Shown one piece after another: positions 4,902 through 47,687 of a DNA stretch of 64,000 nucleotides. How positions within the stretch are numbered: the stretch's first letter is position 1; every line of letters begins with the position of its first letter. The stretch covers positions 1-64,000 of the IMG/VR virus record IMGVR_UViG_3300041583_000345. The stretch is one strand, 5' to 3'. The stretch comes from a virus. The notes under the pieces were generated by a model. The model was not told the origin of the DNA. It worked only from the letters and a program-made list of their open reading frames with translations, and made no database searches. A program made the position numbers and the translations under genes.

Positions 4902-5534
4902 TTATTGTCTTGAGATGTACTCTTCCCCGGGACGTTTTTCTTCCTCATATAGTCCCAAGTCTTTAAGATGCTCTATCATATGTTCATCCATCTCCCAGGT
5001 AAATTGTTCTCCATCTTTATCAACGTAATCTTCCATTCTCTCTACTTCTTTATCCGAGATTGGTGATACAGCGTATAAAAATGCACAATTATAACAGAGA
5101 AACTCTAGATTATCTAAATGATAGTTTCTTTTATTACCATCTTTATGGTTAAGTATAATAGGTATTTTAGTATCCTGTACCCTTCTTTCGGCAAAGCCAC
5201 AGTGGTTACATTTCTCCTCAACTAAACATTCCTGTATTATTCGTAGCTTAACCTTCTGTGGATTAAAATGATCTATAGGTACTCTACCTTCTATAAGATC
5301 CATAAGAGGTGGTTCCTTTCCGCTATTGGTTAAGTGTTTAGGAATTCCTTTTCCGGCTTGATTCTTATGAACCTCAAGTAATGATTTACCTGATTCATCT
5401 TTATACAGCAAAGCGTATTTCTTAAAGTGAGGATAAGAGACATGAAGATATCTTGACGCTGCTTTATTTGAGCGAGTCATTTTTTGTGCCCGTAGGACGT
5501 CTTCCTTTGATAATATTTTGGTTGGTCTGGACAT
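4902..5534 (-). CDS. HNH-like zinc endonuclease domain protein
   Basis: CNHC...LNHKDGNKRNYHLDNLEFLCYNC. Confidence 0.7.
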   Translation of the reverse strand: MSRPTKILSKEDVLRAQKMTRSNKAASRYLHVSYPHFKKYALLYKDESGKSLLEVHKNQAGKGIPKHLTNSGKEPPLMDLIEGRVPIDHFNPQKVKLRIIQECLVEEKCNHCGFAERRVQDTKIPIILNHKDGNKRNYHLDNLEFLCYNCAFLYAVSPISDKEVERMEDYVDKDGEQFTWEMDEHMIEHLKDLGLYEEEKRPGEEYISRQ

Positions 5535-5912
5535 TTAGTAATCTATACCTTGTATATGTGTTCCACTTTCTTCTTCTTCTTCGTCCTCTTCTTTATCCTT
5601 ATCCAAAACCTTAGTTGTAGCTTCTTTTACATCCTGAATAGTTTCAAAATCATCAGAGTCTAAGTCTAGAGCGTCTAGGAAGGTGTTTTGTCCTGCTATT
5701 TCTGCTGCTTTAATTGCAATTGCTCTAAATTGAGCTTGAGGCATAATAATAAGATCGTTGTAAGTATGGTCTCCTGTTCCCTCTAAGGTAGTTATACCCA
5801 CTACGGGTTCTATAGTAGAACAGTTAACACAGACGTGGTAATTATATTTAATTTTTCTTAATTCTGGAAAATCATTGCCGCATTTGGGGCATTCAATCAT
5901 TTTTAACTCCAT
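5535..5912 (-). CDS. C4 zinc-finger protein with acidic tail
   Basis: CPKC...CVNC; acidic C-terminus. Confidence 0.55.
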   Translation of the reverse strand: MELKMIECPKCGNDFPELRKIKYNYHVCVNCSTIEPVVGITTLEGTGDHTYNDLIIMPQAQFRAIAIKAAEIAGQNTFLDALDLDSDDFETIQDVKEATTKVLDKDKEEDEEEEESGTHIQGIDY

Positions 5913-41930: not shown

Positions 41931-41938
41931 TTAAAAAG

Positions 41939-42011
41939 TGGTCCCTACAGGATTCGAACCTGTGACCTTCTCGTTATGAGCGAGCTGCTCTACCATCTGA
42001 GCTAAGAGACC
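41939..42011 (-). tRNA. tRNA CAT (Ile2-like body or elongator Met)
   Basis: GGTCTCTTAGCTCAG...CTCATAA...GTTCGAATCC...GGGACCA. Confidence 0.9.
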
Positions 42012-42070
42012 TGGTCTTTTTTAGAGTTTTGAAATAGAACTCAAGGATATATCGACCTATAAAACTATTT

Positions 42071-42146
42071 TGGTAGCGGGGGTCAGACTCGAACTGACGA
42101 CCTTTGGGTTATGAGCCCAACGAGCTGCCTACTGCTCTACCCCGCG
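42071..42146 (-). tRNA. tRNA-fMet(CAT)
   Basis: C1:A72 mismatch, three G-C pairs in anticodon stem, encoded CCA. Confidence 0.95.
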
Positions 42147-42150
42147 ATTT

Positions 42151-42264
42151 GCTAATTAAAAAGGATTCGAACCTTAATCCTGTCTCTACTTTCATTCCCG
42201 TCATCTGCTAAACACAGATCGTAAAACTACTCCTTTCTGCTGTGCACCATTACACCGTAATTAA
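42151..42264 (-). ncRNA. tRNA-like RNA 1 (acceptor, D-like and T arms; expanded interior)
   Basis: TTAATTA/TAATTAG stem, GTG-TAATGGTG-CAC, AAGG-TTCGAAT-CCTT; 114 nt. Confidence 0.6.
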
Positions 42265-42311
42265 TCAAAGGATTGCAATCCTCCATAGTAAAGTTAATTA
42301 CTCTTTACATT

Positions 42312-42385
42312 TGCGGCCTATGAGAGTTTCAATCTCTCTACTCCATCGTGACAGGATGGGATGATAGTCAGTTCACCAATAGGCC
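42312..42385 (-). tRNA. tRNA-Asp(GTC)
   Basis: CCATC-CTGTCAC-GATGG; T-loop ATTGAAA. Confidence 0.9.
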
Positions 42386-42600
42386 AGTTTCACTTAGTGA
42401 GGATACTAAGCTAGATTTTAACGGTTTTATTTACTTTCAAACAAACACATTAGTGTCTTACCACATTAAAAAAAGTCAAATTACTGGGGGCTATATTACC
42501 TGCCTTTCTTCCTCAGAGGGTGGCATTAAGGATGTCCACCCTATTATCCCTATTTATTTTATAGACTCCATAGATGTCTTATTAAGTACCTCTTACTTAT

Positions 42601-42675
42601 TGTGGGCCGGACGAGGTTCGAACTCGCATACTTTTCGTTGCAAACGAAGTGCTAAGCCAGTTTAGCTACCGGGCC
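42601..42675 (-). tRNA. tRNA-Ala(TGC) lacking G3:U70
   Basis: CTTCG-TTTGCAA-CGAAA; acceptor GGCCCGG/CCGGCCC gives C3:C70. Confidence 0.85.
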
Positions 42676-42875
42676 AAATTATTAAAAACTCTTTGTACAA
42701 ATTTCAGTGTAATATCACGCTCTTAACGCTATGAACCTAATCACCAATACCTTTACAATAAACACAACTGCTGATACAGTCTATAGCTATCCACTTTCAA
42801 TTGTGGTCTTTCTCGCCTTTTCTATCAGGGAATGCTTTCACTATGTCTATCTTTAAGCAAAGAATTTTTAATAAA

Positions 42876-42949
42876 AGTACTCCTGGAGGGTATCGATCCC
42901 TCTACTCTACCGTGAAAGGGTAGTGACTTAGCCAGTTGTCGACAGGAGC
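42876..42949 (-). tRNA. tRNA-Glu(TTC)
   Basis: CTACC-CTTTCAC-GGTAG; T-loop ATCGATA. Confidence 0.9.
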
Positions 42950-43100
42950 ATTTGTAACTTTTGTAATATTCCCAGAGTTACCAACTGTACCAACCTACGA
43001 TTTGGAGAGCATCCACGCCTATATGAGTGTACCCGAAGGTATTTGTTATTTCAACTCATATCTGTAATCTCTATCTTCGATCCCTTGTACTTCGGGCTTT

Positions 43101-43174
43101 TGAGCGAATAGAGGGAATCAGACCCTCGTCCTCTGGGTGGAAGCCAGATATAATAATCACTATACTATATTCGC
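43101..43174 (-). tRNA. tRNA-Gly(TCC)
   Basis: TCTGG-CTTCCAC-CCAGA; U73; T-loop TCTGATT. Confidence 0.88.
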
Positions 43175-43235
43175 ATTAAAAGTAAACATTGACCTCCCTC
43201 GGTGATATTATCGTTAAGCGAGGTTAATTTACTTT

Positions 43236-43309
43236 TGAGCCTCTACAAGGAATCGAACCCTGTTCCTCCGGGTACAAACCGGGCACATTACCATTTATGC
43301 TTTAGAGGC
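43236..43309 (-). tRNA. tRNA-Thr(TGT), copy 1
   Basis: CCCGG-TTTGTAC-CCGGA. Confidence 0.9.
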
Positions 43310-43507
43310 AAAATAAAATAAGTTTTTTGTACCCAATGTACATCATATCGGTATTACCCGAGGTTTGATTTTTTATTTTTTACCTCTTTGTGCACTTGGT
43401 AAAAAATATTATTCCAAACTCTACCCTCCCTAGTCTCTATTTCGAAATTCACCTAGCTATCTGGGATTTATATACCGAGGGGTTATACCTCAGTCTTCAC
43501 TTACTTT

Positions 43508-43581
43508 TGAGCCTCTACAAGGAATCGAACCCTGTTCCTCCGGGTACAAACCGGGCACATTACCATTTATGCTTTAGAGGC
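43508..43581 (-). tRNA. tRNA-Thr(TGT), copy 2 (identical)
   Basis: Exact repeat of 43236-43309, 272 bp away. Confidence 0.9.
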
Positions 43582-43645
43582 AGTTAAGTTAGAATGGTGA
43601 TTTGAATACCTTTTAAGTTCTCCTTCGAACGTCTAACTTATATTT

Positions 43646-43800
43646 TGTAGCCCTAGTTGGAATCGAACCAACCTTTGATAAGTTACTTACTCTAATGTTT
43701 TAACTTTTCTCTTCAAACTAGTATAAGAAGTGTTAAACCAAAAGCCGTAACGTTATCCCACTGATAGTAGTAGGAGCGATCCACTACTATATATAGGACC
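43646..43800 (-). ncRNA. tRNA-like RNA 2 (acceptor stem and T-arm closing a 125-nt structured insert)
   Basis: GGTCCTA/TAGGGCT, GTTGG-TTCGATT-CCAAC, 3' ACA. Confidence 0.7.
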
Positions 43801-43810
43801 ATTTTAATTT

Positions 43811-43915
43811 TGTAGCTATGTTAGGATTCGAACCTAATCCGGCTTTACAATTCTAAGTGAACTTATCGTTAAACTTAACCCTGGAGAGGTGCTATCAACT
43901 AATGATTTCACAGCT
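43811..43915 (-). ncRNA. tRNA-like RNA 3
   Basis: AGCTGTG/CATAGCT, TTAGG-TTCGAAT-CCTAA, 3' ACA; no canonical anticodon arm. Confidence 0.7.
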
Positions 43916-43922
43916 ATAATTT

Positions 43923-43997
43923 TGTACTCGTGGCAGGACTCGAACCTGCAAAAGACCGTTTCTAAGACGGCCGTGTATACCATTCCACCACACGAGC
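43923..43997 (-). tRNA. tRNA-Leu(TAG), short variable loop
   Basis: GCCGT-CTTAGAA-ACGGT; 5-nt variable loop. Confidence 0.9.
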
Positions 43998-44000
43998 AAT

Positions 44001-44069
44001 TTATCCAATATGTCAATGAACCTATCTTTATTATATATAAATATACGAACTATTTACTGTATATCCTAA
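44001..44069 (-). promoter_or_regulatory. internal tRNA-array promoter (TTAG-N16-TTCGTATATTTA) with boxA-like leader GTTCATTGACATATTGGATAA
   Basis: Same arrangement as 47689-47760. Confidence 0.75.
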
Positions 44070-44087
44070 TTTTTTTATGTTTATTTT

Positions 44088-44159
44088 TGAGAGTAAGGTA
44101 GGAATCGAACCTACTCTGTTGGTTTTGCAAACCAACTGTTCTCCAAGAACAACTCACTC
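44088..44159 (-). tRNA. tRNA-Cys(GCA)
   Basis: TTGGT-TTGCAAA-ACCAA; U73. Confidence 0.88.
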
Positions 44160-44165
44160 ATTTAC

Positions 44166-44675
44166 CTAGAATAATAGGTAAGGTTTCCACTCTTCAGGTA
44201 TAAAACTTGTTTTCTTTAATAACATTAAGTAGTGTGGTCTTTTTGGTTTAGGTATTTCCCTACCGTATTCTTTTAATGTTAAATTTGCTTTTTCGTTATT
44301 ACAAATTTTACAAGCAGTTACTAAGTTATCCCAAGTGTTTGGTCCTCCTTTTGATTGTGGTACTACGTGATCTAATGTAAGTGTTTTTCTGTTATTACAA
44401 CCGCAGTATACGCATTCATGTCCATCTCTTTTAAATACATTATCTCTTGTTAGAGCTACTTTCTGGTATTCTAGTTTTACATAAGTGTAGACTCTAATAA
44501 CAGATGGTTTAAAAATTTCTAGTTTGGGGTTTACAACTCCAAATGTTTCGGGGTGTTCAACTACTACATCAGCATTACCTTTATACGAAATCACGAAAGC
44601 TCTTTCGGTAGTAATGATGCTTCTTGCAATGTAGCTTGAATCAACCACTAATGTTTTGTCATAACGATTTTTCAT
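44166..44675 (-). CDS. HNH endonuclease (McrA-like)
   Basis: RDGHECVYCG...TLDHVVPQSKGGPNTWDNLVTACKICN. Confidence 0.92.
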   Translation of the reverse strand: MKNRYDKTLVVDSSYIARSIITTERAFVISYKGNADVVVEHPETFGVVNPKLEIFKPSVIRVYTYVKLEYQKVALTRDNVFKRDGHECVYCGCNNRKTLTLDHVVPQSKGGPNTWDNLVTACKICNNEKANLTLKEYGREIPKPKRPHYLMLLKKTSFIPEEWKPYLLF

Positions 44676-44698
44676 GAGTTAATAATTAAGTTAATGTT

Positions 44699-44769
44699 TG
44701 CGCAACCCCAAGGAATCGAACCTTGTCCTATAGTTTTGGAGACTATTTGGCTACCTTAGCCCGAGAAGC
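44699..44769 (-). tRNA. tRNA-Trp(CCA)
   Basis: ATAGT-CTCCAAA-ACTAT; two U-U pairs in acceptor stem. Confidence 0.85.
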
Positions 44770-44777
44770 ATTTTGTT

Positions 44778-44851
44778 TGAACCTCCACCAAGAATCGAAC
44801 TTGGATCTAAACTTTAGAAGAGTTTTGTTATGTCCATTTAACTATGGAGGT
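44778..44851 (-). tRNA. tRNA-Arg(TCT)
   Basis: AAACT-CTTCTAA-AGTTT. Confidence 0.9.
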
Positions 44852-44854
44852 AGT

Positions 44855-44928
44855 TGAGGCTTTAGAGAGATTCGAACTCCCATTTTTCGGTTCGTAGCCG
44901 AAGGTTCTGTCCATTGAACTATAAAGCC
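44855..44928 (-). tRNA. tRNA-Arg(ACG)
   Basis: TTCGG-CTACGAA-CCGAA. Confidence 0.92.
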
Positions 44929-44931
44929 ATT

Positions 44932-45006
44932 TGTACCCATAGTAGGATTCGAACCTACAGCTTACAGGGCTTAAACCTGTTGTGTTTACCGTTTCACCAT
45001 ATGGGC
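44932..45006 (-). tRNA. tRNA-Leu(TAA), short variable loop
   Basis: ACAGG-TTTAAGC-CCTGT; 5-nt variable loop. Confidence 0.9.
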
Positions 45007-45666
45007 ATTTTTTTTCATTTCACGAGTCTTCCTAAGACTTTCTCTTATCTTTTTTTTAGTTTCCTCACTCCTTGGTTTTCCGTATTGTGAGTTTTTATTC
45101 CCACACCCCTGTCCTATTTTAGCTTTTTTCATCTTAAGTATAGTCTCTTTCGAGTGTTTTTTTCCTAGAAAAGAGTTATGAATATGTCCGCTTTTTTTTA
45201 GACCTCTTTTTATTTTTTTAGAGATAGTGTCTTTGTCCTGCTGTGTTAGATTTTTTACCCACTCTTTTTTTGTATCTTTAAGTTTTAGTATATATGCCTC
45301 TCTCCAATCTACGTCCTGTTGTAATTTCTGTTTTCTAATCTCATTTGCACACCTAGAAGTTTCTATACTAAATCCATTTCCTCCTGTTATTAAGTTTAAG
45401 CAGTTTACACTGTTTAGATCCTGTTCTGTTATTAACTGCATTTCAGCTTGAACTAGGTCTTCTCTTGAATTAAAATACTTAATTATCTCAACCTTAAAAT
45501 TGTCTCTACCGTACTTAGTTACTTCGTAGCGTAGTCTTGTACCGCTTCCTAAATATCCGTCATCGATACGGTTAGTTGAATGCATTCCTAGGTAATATCT
45601 ACTGTTTATTATATTTGTTGTTTTATAAGTAAAGTGGTATTTCTTCTTTTTTGAATAGTTAGCCAT
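44986..45666 (-). mobile_element. GIY-YIG (Seg-like) homing endonuclease with NUMOD3 motifs
   Basis: FTYKTTN...YYLGMHST...YLGSG; FLGKKHSKET and YGKPRSEETKKKI. Confidence 0.88.
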
Positions 45667-45711
45667 TTATGTTTGTTTATTATAAATAGCTAACTGTTTC
45701 AAAAAGTATAC

Positions 45712-45785
45712 TGGGTGTAAGGAAGGTATCGATCCTTCGTCTTTTGATTCACAGTCAAACATTCTACCATTGAACTACAAACACC
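45712..45785 (-). tRNA. tRNA-His(GTG)
   Basis: TTTGA-CTGTGAA-TCAAA; G-1:C73; T-loop ATCGATA. Confidence 0.9.
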
Positions 45786-45903
45786 ATGTTTGTAAGGCTC
45801 CCACTTTCCTTACTTGTCAGTCTATAGTTGTCTCTTACGAGGTGCGGGTGACTGAATTATCCTCCACATATTTCTATGTTTGAACCCGAGCGGTTTTAAA
45901 TAT

Positions 45904-45977
45904 AGTACCAATAGATGGAATTGAACCATCAACCTACTCCGTATGAAAGAGCCGCTCTACCATTGAGCTATATTGGT
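45904..45977 (-). tRNA. tRNA-Met(CAT)
   Basis: GCTCT-TTCATAC-GGAGT. Confidence 0.85.
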
Positions 45978-45981
45978 ATTT

Positions 45982-46069
45982 TGAGGAAGAAATCGGAATC
46001 GAACCGAATGCCTTTTACAGCACGATTATCTTAGCAGGATACCCTAATCACCATCATAGTTTATCTTCC
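45982..46069 (-). tRNA. tRNA-Ser(GCT)
   Basis: TATC-CTGCTAA-GATA; long variable arm. Confidence 0.88.
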
Positions 46070-46072
46070 TTT

Positions 46073-46148
46073 TGTCGATCTAGCAGGATTTGAACCTGCG
46101 GCTTATTCGGTATCAGCGAATTACTCTACCGGGCTGAGTTATAGATCG
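46073..46148 (-). tRNA. tRNA-Ile(GAT)
   Basis: ATTCG-CTGATAC-CGAAT. Confidence 0.92.
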
Positions 46149-46278
46149 AAGTTGATTACAACCTGACTCCTTTCGAACTTTGAGAAACTCGTATCATTCA
46201 ATTTTTGTAATCAATCCTGTATGAAGAGTTTTTAATACGATCACTAGAACTCAAGGGCAGGACTTCCTATAAACTAAT

Positions 46279-46355
46279 TGGAGGGTTGGGTGGGGGTCGA
46301 ACCCACGGAATCTTTTACTTAACAGGCAAATGCTTTACCACTTAGCTACCAACCC
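46279..46355 (-). tRNA. tRNA-Asn(GTT)
   Basis: TTTGC-CTGTTAA-GTAAA; encoded CCA. Confidence 0.92.
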
Positions 46356-46441
46356 TGAATTTAGTCTCTCCTAATAGTCACCCCTCTATAAGCTTCTCAG
46401 TTATGGTTCTGTGGGGTAGAAGCAACTAACTACGATGTAGT

Positions 46442-46522
46442 TGTTACGATTAAAGGACTCGAACCTTCATTGGGTATATCTACCGGTACTGCCAATGGAA
46501 CAGTCAACGCACCTGCATCGTA
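46442..46522 (-). ncRNA. tRNA-like RNA 4
   Basis: TACGAT/ATCGTA stem, GAAGG-TTCGAGT-CCTTT, 3' ACA; CATTGG/CCAATG arm with 18-nt loop in place of an anticodon loop. Confidence 0.65.
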
Positions 46523-46528
46523 ATATGA

Positions 46529-46604
46529 TGGTGGAATCTGAAGGAATCGAACCTTCTCCTTTAGTTCTTCAGACTAGCGTGCGAACCATCTACACAAAAA
46601 TTCC
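46529..46604 (-). tRNA. tRNA-Phe(GAA)
   Basis: CTAGT-CTGAAGA-ACTAA; encoded CCA. Confidence 0.9.
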
Positions 46605-46750
46605 ATATCCCTTCGTTGCTACTTACACTTTCTAGCTAGTGTGCTTTCACCCTTTCCCGTTTATTTTATATCGTCGTACTAATGGGGCTTACGCCACGAT
46701 ATTGGTTTGGCTTTTTTCCTGTTTCTTTCTTTCAGTAGCCTTCTGCCCGG

Positions 46751-46831
46751 TGGGGCAAGGTGGATTCGAACCACTCCCTTGCGGACGAGATTTACAGTCT
46801 CGCTGCCGTATCCGAACGACTTTCTCTCCCC
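46751..46831 (-). tRNA. tRNA-Tyr(GTA)
   Basis: CGAGA-CTGTAAA-TCTCG; variable arm CC-GCAA-GG. Confidence 0.88.
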
Positions 46832-46835
46832 TTTG

Positions 46836-46925
46836 ATTTTGTAATAGGACTTGAACCTATACGAAGACCTTGCGGTTACTTCAACCCTTGGAATGGGTCG
46901 TGTATCCCAATTTCACCACACAAAA
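46836..46925 (-). tRNA. atypical class II tRNA: Leu-like body, TCC (Gly) anticodon
   Basis: D arm GTG-AAATTGGGATA-CAC, GACCC-ATTCCAA-GGGTT, 20-nt variable arm, U73. Confidence 0.7.
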
Positions 46926-47022
46926 CAACTATCTTTAAGAAGACTGTAATCTCCAAATAAATAGACTAGTAAATGCAATTAACGATATTACAGTACCGTA
47001 TTTATATACACCCAACTAATTT

Positions 47023-47095
47023 TGTACCTCGTAGTGGAATCGAACCACTGCCAATTGCATGTAAAACAATTACGCTTCCATTACGCCAACGAGGC
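47023..47095 (-). tRNA. tRNA-Val(TAC)
   Basis: ATTGT-TTTACAT-GCAAT. Confidence 0.9.
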
Positions 47096-47152
47096 AAATT
47101 TAATTCTAAGCTTCGGACTTGATTCCTTCTATGAATTAATAACAGTCTCTTT

Positions 47153-47225
47153 TGTGCCCCTTGTAGGTAACGATCCTACTTCCCGATATTAAAAGTATCG
47201 TGCTTCACCTTAAAGCTTAAAGGGC
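47153..47225 (-). tRNA. tRNA-Lys(TTT)
   Basis: CGATA-CTTTTAA-TATCG; T-loop ATCGTTA. Confidence 0.9.
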
Positions 47226-47282
47226 AATTCCGCATTTCTAAGATAGGTGGCATTTTTACACAGCCAGCGGACCTATTTGTGG

Positions 47283-47357
47283 TGGTCGGGTAGAGAAGAG
47301 TTGAACTTCCCGCCTCTCGCTTCCAAAGCGAGCTTCTCACCCCGAGAATACTACCCG
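47283..47357 (-). tRNA. tRNA-Pro(TGG)
   Basis: CTCGC-TTTGGAA-GCGAG; encoded CCA. Confidence 0.92.
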
Positions 47358-47426
47358 TATTAATCTACTTTTACCCTGGCTATATATGGCATTTCATATC
47401 TTTTACCCAGGCTATTTTGTAGATTA

Positions 47427-47500
47427 TGTTAGTATACCAAGATTCGAACTTGGGCTATTTGATTCAAAGTCAAATGTGTTAACCGCTACACTATATACTA
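47427..47500 (-). tRNA. tRNA-Gln(TTG)
   Basis: TTTGA-CTTTGAA-TCAAA; U1:A72. Confidence 0.92.
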
Positions 47501-47596
47501 ATTTAAAAACTACTTACACCTAATAAAGAAATCTCATCTTTTCTTCGCCCAGGGACGAATTAGTTTCATTGACTTAGGCGAATTACAGTAGTTTTT

Positions 47597-47687
47597 TGAG
47601 GAAGGTGTGGGATTCGAACCCACGGGTGCTTTAACACACCTCCAGTTTTCAAGACTGGTGCAATTAGCCGGACTCTGCCAACCTTCC
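47597..47687 (-). tRNA. tRNA-Ser(TGA)
   Basis: CCAGT-CTTGAAA-ACTGG; long variable arm. Confidence 0.93.

What the first reader, a model, noticed from the sequence alone, without database searches (positions are those of the whole stretch)
42151..46522. Four tRNA top-half mimics: acceptor stem and T-arm retained, decoding half replaced
Seen: RNAs at 42151-42264, 43646-43800, 43811-43915 and 46442-46522 have 6-7-bp acceptor stems and canonical TTCGA T-arms, and three end in the same ACA as the true tRNAs, but interiors of 50-125 nt do not form an anticodon arm. The 155-nt one has its own helices (ATAGTAGT/ACTACTAT; GATAA-C-GTTAC/GTAACTTATC; TTTAAC/GTTAAA). Established: RNase P, tRNase Z, CCA enzyme and EF-Tu read mainly this top half. 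Inference: tRNA-shaped carriers matured like tRNA that deliver cargo domains or act as decoys for tRNA-targeting defence nucleases.
Basis: partly seen in the sequence, partly recalled or inferred. Interest (0 to 1): 0.72.

Follow-up and report, generated by a model that had tools for sequence, protein, structure and literature searches.

The report
Phage tRNA-framed cargo RNA genes
Three of the four loci are genes for small RNAs that keep the frame of a tRNA but carry a conserved folded insert instead of the codon-reading arm; such RNAs are widespread in phages and have been known from T4 and T5 for decades without a known job.

Summary
All four loci lie on the minus strand inside a 27-gene phage tRNA array. 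Each has an acceptor stem and a canonical T arm, and none scores as a tRNA.

- **c1, c2 and c3** (42151-42264, 43646-43800, 43811-43915) each have relatives in distant uncultured phages.
- **Compensatory changes** support the acceptor, D-like and T stems and helices of the insert: 12 of 24 pairs for c3, 17 of 27 for c1, 8 of 16 for c2.
- They are therefore selected RNA genes, not pseudogenes or intron-bearing tRNAs.
- **c3** belongs to a very large phage-only family. Its leucine-tRNA-type frame recurs letter for letter in more than 120 viral contigs, around unrelated inserts.
- **Flanks:** all four share the array's own U(-1) and N73-CAA flanks (c1 in one register).
- **c4** (46442-46522) exists only as identical copies in the nearest relatives and stays unresolved; it may be a degenerate tRNA without a D arm.

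Best reading: natural "tRNA scaffold" RNAs, cut out and stabilised by the host's tRNA enzymes, with the insert as the working part. The insert's job is unknown, and I found no evidence for the decoy idea. T5 RNA1/RNA2 and T4 RNA C are the known precedents.

This scan already found the same family on other genomes.

The parts
41938..47687 (-). Context: phage tRNA array with 25 ARAGORN tRNAs, weak tRNA-Trp(cca) at 44701-44769 and weak tRNA-Ser(gct) at 45985-46069, two homing-endonuclease ORFs, and the four tRNA-framed elements
42151..42264 (-). c1 body: acceptor stem (U1-G72 register), D arm GTGT-AATGGT-GCAC, about 63-nt insert with purine-rich conserved strands and a variable hairpin, 4-bp T stem with TTCGAAT loop, one extra base before the 3' acceptor strand
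   Evidence: 10 homologues, 17 of 27 pairs with compensatory change, 0 of 500 shuffles as high; frame model R1 25.9 bits, E 8e-4
42267..42308 (-). c1 5' module: hairpin A (42288-42308, conserved loop AGTAATTAA) and hairpin B (42267-42284), directly upstream of the c1 body. Both are conserved with covariation across the c1 family
   Evidence: helix 1: 6 of 6 pairs covary; helix 2: 4 of 5
43646..43800 (-). c2: four-way junction. 7-bp acceptor, 8+3-bp hairpin at the D position, invariant single-stranded AGTGG, about 85-nt central arm closed by GATAA/TTATC with a conserved apical loop, T arm, A73 then CAAAAT
   Evidence: 5 homologues share the architecture; 8 of 16 aligned pairs covary; closing helix and apical stem change by compensation
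43811..43915 (-). c3: 7-bp acceptor, 4-bp D-like stem with 5-nt loop, invariant hairpin ACCT-CTCCA-GGGT, helix AAGT/ACTT enclosing a variable hairpin, conserved single strand, T arm, A73 then CAAAAT. It starts 12 nt upstream of c2
   Evidence: 24 sequences, 99% of cells paired, 12 of 24 pairs with compensatory change, 0 of 500 shuffles as high, slid controls 0-3 pairs
46442..46522 (-). c4: 6-of-7-bp acceptor, no D arm, hairpin ACTGT-TCCATTG-GCAGT, small hairpin GGTA-GATA-TACC, T arm GAAGG-TTCGAGT-CCTTT, A73 then CAAC. Status unresolved
   Evidence: only identical copies in the closest relatives; no paralogue among the array's tRNAs

Best explanation
c1, c2 and c3 are genes for tRNA-framed small RNAs, natural counterparts of the laboratory 'tRNA scaffold'.

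Proposed course of events:
1. They are transcribed with the phage's tRNAs as part of the array (inferred).
2. The acceptor/T-arm stack and an elbow formed with a GG-bearing D element make the host's tRNA enzymes treat them as pre-tRNAs.
3. RNase P cuts the 5' end. A 3' enzyme acts at the same N73-CAA site as in the neighbouring tRNAs, and CCA is then completed by the host enzyme (inferred; the part of the phage record held has no CCA enzyme gene).
4. The frame gives precise ends and stability.
5. The working part is the folded insert that stands where the anticodon and variable arms would be. It cannot read codons.

Each of the three inserts is a separate, conserved RNA domain with invariant loops or single strands. 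I take these to be binding sites for a protein or RNA partner that is not yet known.

c3 is a diverged member of a huge phage-only superfamily in which one leucine-tRNA-type frame is reused around many unrelated inserts. c1 and c2 are sister families with frames of their own.

c4 is either a lineage-specific member or a decayed tRNA without a D arm.
For: **Shown**
- Frame stems of c3, c1 and c2 are kept by compensatory changes in phages whose DNA polymerase is only about 65-68% identical, or that were reached only through the RNA motifs.
- Insert helices covary and insert loops are invariant.
- There is no tRNA score and no conserved anticodon loop. The c1 hairpin at that place varies in length and loop between members.
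- Flanks match the tRNAs: U(-1) in 19 of 27 tRNAs and in c2-c4; N73-CAA in 17 of 27 tRNAs, in c2-c4 and, in one register, c1. 18 of 23 c3-type RNAs of other phages also have CAA after N73.
- All strict top-half hits lie in the array.
- The frame ending CCTGACT-A occurs exactly in more than 120 viral stretches around unrelated interiors of 31-83 nt and more. In 185,579 prokaryote genomes it occurs only 24 times, always in metagenome-assembled bins.
- T5 RNA1 and RNA2, annotated 'tRNA-like stable RNA', have the same build. T4 RNA C carries a T arm at its 3' end.

**From the literature**
- RNase P binds the T-arm/acceptor stack and measures from the elbow; RNase Z and the CCA enzyme also gauge from the elbow (PMC4919913).
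- A scaffold of acceptor stem, T arm and D arm with the anticodon stem-loop replaced by an insert has allowed more than 50 RNA constructs to be expressed in E. coli (PMC3753655).
Against: - There is no expression or end-mapping data for this phage.
- No CCA-adding enzyme gene (PF01743) is in the 122-kb record, which is 74% complete, so maturation would rely on the host.
- c1's T stem is only 4 bp, with extra unpaired bases next to the acceptor stem. That may weaken RNase P recognition.
- The window's c3 has lost one G of the D-loop GG that its closest relative keeps.
- c1 looks fast-evolving or decaying in this lineage. 9 of the 16 differences to L004 over 1055 nt fall within its 114 nt, and the whole module is missing from the 98-99% identical L002/L003.
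- c4 has no informative homologue.
- No partner or target of any insert was found. Antisense matches to the phage's own genome are at chance level.
Confidence: 0.7

Rival explanations
1. Decayed tRNA genes: duplicates in the array that lost their anticodon arm and drift without function.
For: - c4 exists only as identical copies in the nearest relatives. It can be drawn as a D-armless tRNA with CAU in a 7-nt loop.
- The window's c1 copy departs from its family consensus in conserved insert motifs, carries a tenfold excess of substitutions over its flanks, and is absent from L002/L003.
Against: - c1, c2 and c3 have homologues in distant phages with 17, 8 and 12 compensated pairs and invariant insert motifs. 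Drift does not produce that.
- c4 has no detectable paralogue among the array's tRNAs.
Confidence: 0.1
2. Decoys or sponges: the tRNA frame itself soaks up a host factor that binds tRNA bodies (a defence nuclease, a toxin, a modification or charging enzyme), and the insert is secondary.
For: - The frame is the most conserved part of the superfamily, identical in more than 120 contigs.
- Several copies per genome (9 in L121, 6 in L133) would suit titration.
Against: - Each insert type is itself conserved, with invariant loops.
- In the window's lineage every frame stem has been re-coded by compensatory changes, so no frame sequence is kept.
- The elements lack the anticodon loops that known anticodon nucleases cut (my own knowledge).
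Confidence: 0.12
3. Charged effectors: the RNAs are aminoacylated (leucine for the Leu-type frame), bind EF-Tu and act on the ribosome or feed an aminoacyl-transfer reaction, in the manner of tmRNA.
For: - Across 50 members of the superfamily, U8, A14, G18 and A73 are in 50 of 50, G19 in 49, A15 in 48 and U48 in 44. A73 was fixed by the search pattern.
- E. coli LeuRS needs A73 and the D/T-loop tertiary contacts but neither the anticodon nor the extra arm. Minimal tRNA-Leu lacking both arms is still charged (PMC9976931).
Against: - Within the single c3 insert family the D arm alternates between a Leu type and a minimal 4-bp/5-nt-loop arm without A14/A15.
- N73 in that family is A in 18, G in 4 and U in 2 of 24.
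- c1 has G or C at position 73 and c2's relative L105 has G73, so leucine identity is not conserved.
- ARAGORN reports no tmRNA at default settings.
Confidence: 0.08
4. Interrupted tRNA genes: the interiors are introns that are removed to give ordinary tRNAs.
For: The interruption sits between the D arm and the T arm.
Against: - The constant parts end at the D arm and resume at the T arm, so no anticodon-stem halves are left to join.
- The interiors are 31-125 nt and give no intron or ribozyme match in Rfam at E<=10.
- The interiors are themselves conserved structured domains.
- All 20 amino acids are already served by the array.
Confidence: 0.02
5. DNA-level cassette borders: the identical frame ends act mainly as recombination sites where phages swap or lose modules.
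For: - Frame ends are identical between unrelated inserts and between phages.
- The c1 module is present in some 98-99% identical relatives and absent from others.
- c2 sits at different places in the array in different phages.
- One element is nested in the D loop of another.
Against: Compensatory changes in stems and conserved unpaired motifs show selection on the RNA fold. Recombination at the frames can be a side effect, not the purpose.
Confidence: 0.08

Closest known systems
Phage T5 RNA1 (144 nt) and RNA2 (125 nt), annotated misc_RNA 'tRNA-like stable RNA with unknown functions' in AY543070
   Same: - Encoded between tRNA genes on the tRNA strand.
- Acceptor-type closing stem, D arm with GG (RNA1 has a Leu-type D arm), canonical T arm, and a large folded interior in place of the anticodon arm.
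- RNA2 ends in ACA and its T arm reads GCAGG-TTCGAAT-CCTGT, as in the large phage family.
- The frame model R1 scores RNA1 at 27.3 bits and RNA2 at 20.3 bits; c1 scores 25.9.
   Different: - I saw no similarity between the interiors.
- The T5 RNAs come from a phage of Enterobacteria, this window from an uncultured Bacteroidota-type phage.
- The T5 RNAs are recorded as stable RNAs; nothing is known about expression here.
Phage T4 RNA C (species 1, 139 nt) and RNA D (species 2, 119 nt)
   Same: - Small stable RNAs made from the tRNA region, with roles still unknown (PMC3014915; PMC9697503).
- RNA C has a canonical T arm next to its 3' end, followed by a CAAACA trailer.
   Different: - RNA C has only a partial acceptor helix and no clear D arm.
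- RNA D shows no T arm in the record's coordinates.
- R1 scores RNA C at only 21.4 bits.
Engineered 'tRNA scaffold' for recombinant RNA (Ponchon, Dardel and co-workers; PMC3753655)
   Same: Same design: acceptor stem, T arm and D arm kept, anticodon stem-loop replaced by an arbitrary structured insert. The chimera is recognised and processed by cellular tRNA enzymes and accumulates.
   Different: It is man-made and its inserts are chosen by the experimenter. Here the inserts are natural, conserved and of unknown function.
tRNA-like domain of tmRNA
   Same: An upper tRNA half alone is enough for RNase P processing, tRNA modifications, charging and EF-Tu binding (PMC3985003, abstract).
   Different: - tmRNA carries a tag reading frame and pseudoknots and is alanine-specific.
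- ARAGORN finds no tmRNA here at default settings. Only spurious permuted calls appear at a lowered threshold.
tRNA-like processing elements (mascRNA at MALAT1; plant mitochondrial t-elements)
   Same: Non-decoding tRNA look-alikes that recruit RNase P and RNase Z (PMC8457004; PMC1920247).
   Different: Those mainly mark the ends of a neighbouring long RNA. Here the look-alike itself carries the conserved domain.
Bacterial Y RNA YrlA (recalled from my own knowledge, not tested beyond Rfam)
   Same: A non-coding RNA with a tRNA-mimicking module (T arm, D arm and acceptor-like helix) joined to a second functional module.
   Different: In YrlA the RNA ends lie at the Ro-binding stem, that is, at the anticodon side, which is the reverse arrangement. 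No Rfam family other than weak chance hits matched here.

Membership tests
Canonical tRNA (Rfam RF00005; ARAGORN) | 7-bp acceptor stem stacked on a 5-bp T stem with a T-psi-C type loop | tested here: met
   c4 has 6 of 7 acceptor pairs; c1 has 4 solid T-stem pairs and one extra base.
Canonical tRNA (Rfam RF00005; ARAGORN) | Anticodon arm: 5-bp stem, 7-nt loop with U33 and a purine at 37 | tested here: not met
   - c1-c3: no such conserved hairpin.
- c3's invariant hairpin has a 4-bp stem and a 5-nt loop.
- c4 alone can form 5 bp plus 7 nt, but with C33 and U37, so it is inconclusive.
Canonical tRNA (Rfam RF00005; ARAGORN) | Score at or above the family threshold | tested here: not met
   No RF00005 match to any of the four even at E<=10. 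No ARAGORN call at default settings.
   - c3: its insert occurs in 23 further RNAs, most with the exact AGTCAGG/CCTGACT frame.
- c1 and c2: sister families with their own frames. c1 scores 25.9 bits on the frame model; c2 and c4 give no hit at E<=1.
   - c1 has GTGT-AATGGT-GCAC, which fits.
- c3 has a minimal D arm (the window copy reads AG instead of GG).
- c2 has a long hairpin plus GUGG.
- c4 has none.
- The model built on the family scores the window's own tRNA-Leu genes highest among its tRNAs, at 46.2 and 39.3 bits.
T5 RNA1/RNA2 and T4 RNA C type stable RNAs of phage tRNA clusters | Encoded among phage tRNA genes on the same strand, with a tRNA-like 3' domain | tested here: met
T5 RNA1/RNA2 and T4 RNA C type stable RNAs of phage tRNA clusters | Accumulates as a discrete stable RNA during infection | not testable with these tools
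   No expression data could be obtained for this uncultured phage.
tmRNA | tRNA-like domain plus tag reading frame, detected by ARAGORN | tested here: not met
Intron-containing tRNA gene | Exons that join into a complete anticodon arm, and an intron core recognisable as group I or similar | tested here: not met
   The constant parts stop at the D arm and resume at the T arm. No intron or ribozyme family matched at E<=10.

The most novel reading that the evidence does not exclude
The tRNA frame is a phage-wide, exchangeable delivery cassette for natural RNA aptamers or sponges. Each insert binds and disables or redirects a particular host protein or RNA, defence or translation factors included. 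On this reading c1, c2 and c3 types are the conserved core set, and the many unrelated inserts of other phages are an evolving arsenal.
Probability: 0.25. Interest if true: 0.85.

Novelty: new member of a known kind. Interest (0 to 1): 0.6.

Why it matters
tRNA-like stable RNAs of phage tRNA clusters have been known from T4 and T5 for decades with no function assigned.

This window adds three things:
- The kind is conserved, modular and very widespread in uncultured phages.
- There are three insert families with firm covariation support, each with invariant motifs that can be mutated or used as bait.
- A 3' flank (N73-CAA) is shared with the true tRNAs, which links their maturation to tRNA processing.

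If the inserts bind host factors, this would be a large, unexplored class of phage RNA effectors. It would also be a natural precedent for the tRNA-scaffold technique.

Tried and rejected
- **Rfam** at gathering and at E<=10 over the array: no family for the four loci.
- **ARAGORN** with introns, lowered thresholds, tmRNA and mitochondrial modes: only poor or spurious calls.
- **Cultured phage collection**, blastn with the array and with a family member: only ordinary tRNA matches and one chance hit.
- **RNA runs:** no RNA holder was listed for the array, so no reads were laid.
- **c4 homologues**, motif scans of viral and metagenome contigs: only identical copies from the same lineage plus chance hits. 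c4 also has no paralogue among the array's tRNAs.
- **Antisense targets in the phage's own genome:** longest matches are at chance level, or are T arms of other tRNAs.
- **Fixed closing helix at the base of the inserts** across 50 family members: not above shuffled controls.
- **CCA-adding enzyme gene** in the record: none.
- **Pairing of the c1 hairpin-A loop with the acceptor strand:** rejected, because the loop does not follow acceptor changes.
- **Alternative 6-bp c1 T-arm helix** proposed by RNAalifold: broken in L169, while the canonical stem is compensated.
- **172-nt insertion in L002 next to c3:** no significant fold.
- **Frame model R1:** it does not separate the family from true tRNAs, so it is only a weak membership test.
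- **Seven-base match of the c3 hairpin to the anti-Shine-Dalgarno sequence:** noted, but I treat it as possibly chance.

Full report
**Setting**

The window is the first 64 kb of a 121,930-bp IMG/VR virus record, estimated 74% complete, with about 33% G+C. It encodes a family-A-type DNA polymerase, GroEL, ribonucleotide reductase and a DnaB-type helicase. Its tRNAs match Cellulophaga phages best among cultured phages.

On the minus strand, 41938-47687, lies an array of 25 tRNAs. Two weak ones add to it: Trp(cca) at 44701-44769 and Ser(gct) at 45985-46069. Together they serve all 20 amino acids. Two homing-endonuclease ORFs interrupt the array. The record has no tRNA elsewhere.

**The observation**

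Read on the minus strand, each of the four loci has an acceptor helix and a T arm with a TTCGA loop, at the coordinates given.

A strict scan asked for a TTCGA loop, a G53-C61 closing pair, at least 4 of 5 T-stem pairs, and an acceptor of 7 of 7 or 6 of 7 pairs. It gives 20 hits in the window. All are in the array, none is outside, and 0.015 are expected in resampled array sequence. None of the four scores as tRNA in Rfam even at E<=10, and ARAGORN does not call them at default settings.

The flanks are those of the true tRNAs:
- U at -1 in 19 of 27 tRNAs and in c2-c4.
- N73 followed by CAA in 17 of 27 tRNAs and in c2-c4. c1 has it too in one register.
- Only four tRNAs encode CCA.

**Relatives**

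The protein downstream of the array and the DNA polymerase led to 3 and 80 related viral loci.

Near-identical relatives (98-99%) are L002, L003 and L004:
- L002 and L003 hold c2, c3 and c4 but lack the whole c1 module.
- L004 holds c1.

More distant phages, with polymerase about 65-68% identical, hold recognisable c3 and c2 genes at other places in or next to their arrays.

Motif scans of the viral collection then brought in 23 further c3-type RNAs, 8 further c1-type RNAs and 4 c2-type RNAs.

**c3**

The alignment has 24 sequences. 99% of cells are paired, and 12 of 24 pairs show changes on both sides. No shuffle out of 500 reaches this, and slid controls give 0-3 such pairs.

- The acceptor occurs in at least four versions and the T stem in three.
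- The outer pair of the D-like stem takes all four Watson-Crick forms.
- The insert has an invariant hairpin (ACCU, five-base loop, AGGU). A covarying helix encloses a variable hairpin. An invariant single strand (CUUUAUGGCAAAGC) lies before the T arm.

**c1**

The alignment has 10 sequences, 95.5% of cells paired, and 17 of 27 pairs with changes on both sides; no shuffle out of 500 reaches this.

- The supported acceptor register has U1-G72 and one extra base after a T stem of effectively 4 bp.
- The D arm is invariant.
- Two further hairpins directly upstream belong to the family. Hairpin A has the loop AGUAAUUAA; hairpin B has a T-loop-like loop in most members. The gene therefore reaches to about 42308.

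The window copy is aberrant in three ways:
- Its conserved purine-rich insert motifs are altered.
- Hairpin B has lost the T-loop-like loop.
- 9 of the 16 differences to L004 over 1055 nt fall in its 114 nt.

**c2**

Five members share one architecture:
- an acceptor in which 4 of 7 pairs have changes on both sides and a fifth varies on one side;
- a hairpin of variable sequence at the D position;
- an invariant single-stranded (A/U)UGG;
- a long arm whose closing helix changes by compensation (GAUAA/UUAUC, GUUAAU/AUUAAC, GUAAAU/AUUUAC);
- an apical loop (UUA(A)UACUAG) conserved in three members, with a compensated closing stem (CUCC/GGAG against CUUC/GAAG);
- a T arm.

**c4**

Only identical copies exist, in four or five contigs of the same lineage, and there is no paralogue in the array. 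It has no D arm. It can form a 5-bp/7-nt hairpin holding CAU (with C33 and U37) and a small extra arm. I cannot decide between a lineage-specific member and a relic.

**The wider family**

Most c3-type RNAs carry the frame AGTCAGG...CCTGACT with the T arm ACAGG-TTCGAAT-CCTGT.

- A 5' part ending in a D arm of leucine-tRNA type usually goes with it, around interiors that are unrelated in sequence and length.
- One phage has nine copies.
- One copy has a second small element nested in its D loop.
- In 185,579 prokaryote genomes the frame occurs only 24 times, always in metagenome-assembled bins. It is therefore a phage feature and not a host tRNA.
- A model of the frame scores the window's two tRNA-Leu genes highest among its tRNAs (46.2 and 39.3 bits). 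It scores c1 at 25.9, T5 RNA1 at 27.3, T5 RNA2 at 20.3 and T4 RNA C at 21.4 bits. It does not separate the family from tRNAs.

**What is known**

- The T5 record annotates RNA1 and RNA2 as 'tRNA-like stable RNA with unknown functions'. Their sequences show the same build.
- T4 RNA C (species 1) carries a T arm at its 3' end.
- Reviews and a 2022 omics study still call the roles of the T4 RNAs unknown (PMC3014915, PMC9697503).
- I found no paper describing the large family. The library is incomplete.
- Earlier follow-ups of this scan reported the same family on other genomes and pointed to T5. I checked the T5 and T4 records myself.

**Mechanism**

Shown:
- selection on a tRNA-like frame;
- selection on each insert;
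- flanks like those of tRNAs.

Established elsewhere:
- RNase P binds the T-arm/acceptor stack and measures from the elbow. RNase Z and the CCA enzyme also gauge from the elbow (PMC4919913).
- A scaffold of acceptor, T and D arms with the anticodon stem-loop replaced by an insert has allowed many RNAs to be expressed in E. coli (PMC3753655).

Inferred: these RNAs are cut out of the array transcript and stabilised like tRNAs, and the insert is the effector.

Leucine charging is conceivable for the standard frame (PMC9976931). It is not conserved within the c3 family or in c1 and c2.

I found no support for the decoy reading, and nothing excludes it. Introns are excluded for c1-c3. Pseudogenes are excluded for the three families, though the window's own c1 copy may be decaying.

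**Verdict**

The feature is real, and it is a new set of members of a known but unexplained kind. Interest is moderate to high because the function is open and is now testable through defined motifs.

Noticed in passing
window 46835-46925 (-); L002 4538-4628; L106 4839-4911; L107 5663-5735; L123 (reverse-complement coordinates) 5325-5396: The 91-nt class II-bodied tRNA between Val and Tyr reads TCC (Gly) here but TCT (Arg) in the 98%-identical L002. The gene at the same position in more distant relatives is a 72-73-nt tRNA read as Pro(cgg), Pro(tgg) or Ser(cga). The anticodon at this slot is unusually changeable.
   Followed up: partly
window 44701-44769 (-) and 45985-46069 (-): Two aberrant tRNAs missed by ARAGORN at default settings: Trp(cca) at 29.9 bits and a Ser(gct)-like gene that scores only as weak tRNA-Sec (32.6 bits). 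Counterparts exist in relatives.
   Followed up: partly
window 41938-47687 (-): 17 of 27 tRNAs are followed by N73-CAA(A) and only 4 encode CCA. The same trailer follows 18 of 23 c3-type RNAs of other phages, and T4 RNA C. It may be a shared 3'-processing signal.
   Followed up: partly
L121 10709-10940 (G016): A 232-nt family member has a second small acceptor-plus-T-arm element inserted in its D loop. L114 5747-5914 and several members also have hairpin inserts in the D loop.
   Followed up: no
L106 5134-5209; L123 (reverse-complement coordinates) 5486-5562: A conserved element with a T arm only 17 nt after the preceding tRNA, followed by a D-arm-like segment. It may be a permuted or minimal tRNA-like RNA.
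   Followed up: no
L103 1530-1600; L105 7412-7480; L107 7774-7840; L118 7830-7860: A conserved motif (AAGGTTCGACCCTCTACCA...) follows tRNA-Cys directly in several relatives. It has a covarying-looking hairpin and is absent from the window.
   Followed up: no
window 44166-44675 (-) and 44986-45666 (-): An HNH endonuclease ORF and a NUMOD3-bearing ORF lie inside the tRNA array, as in T4 and T5. Relatives differ in which endonucleases they hold.
   Followed up: no
window 43237-43581 (-): tRNA-Thr(tgt) is duplicated with a 199-nt spacer here but single in L002. The array differs from 98-99% identical relatives by whole-module gains and losses.
   Followed up: no
window 43880-43890 (-), and the c3 family: The invariant c3 hairpin region reads CACCUCC in most members, the same seven bases as the anti-Shine-Dalgarno end of 16S rRNA (recalled from my own knowledge). 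This may be chance.
   Followed up: no
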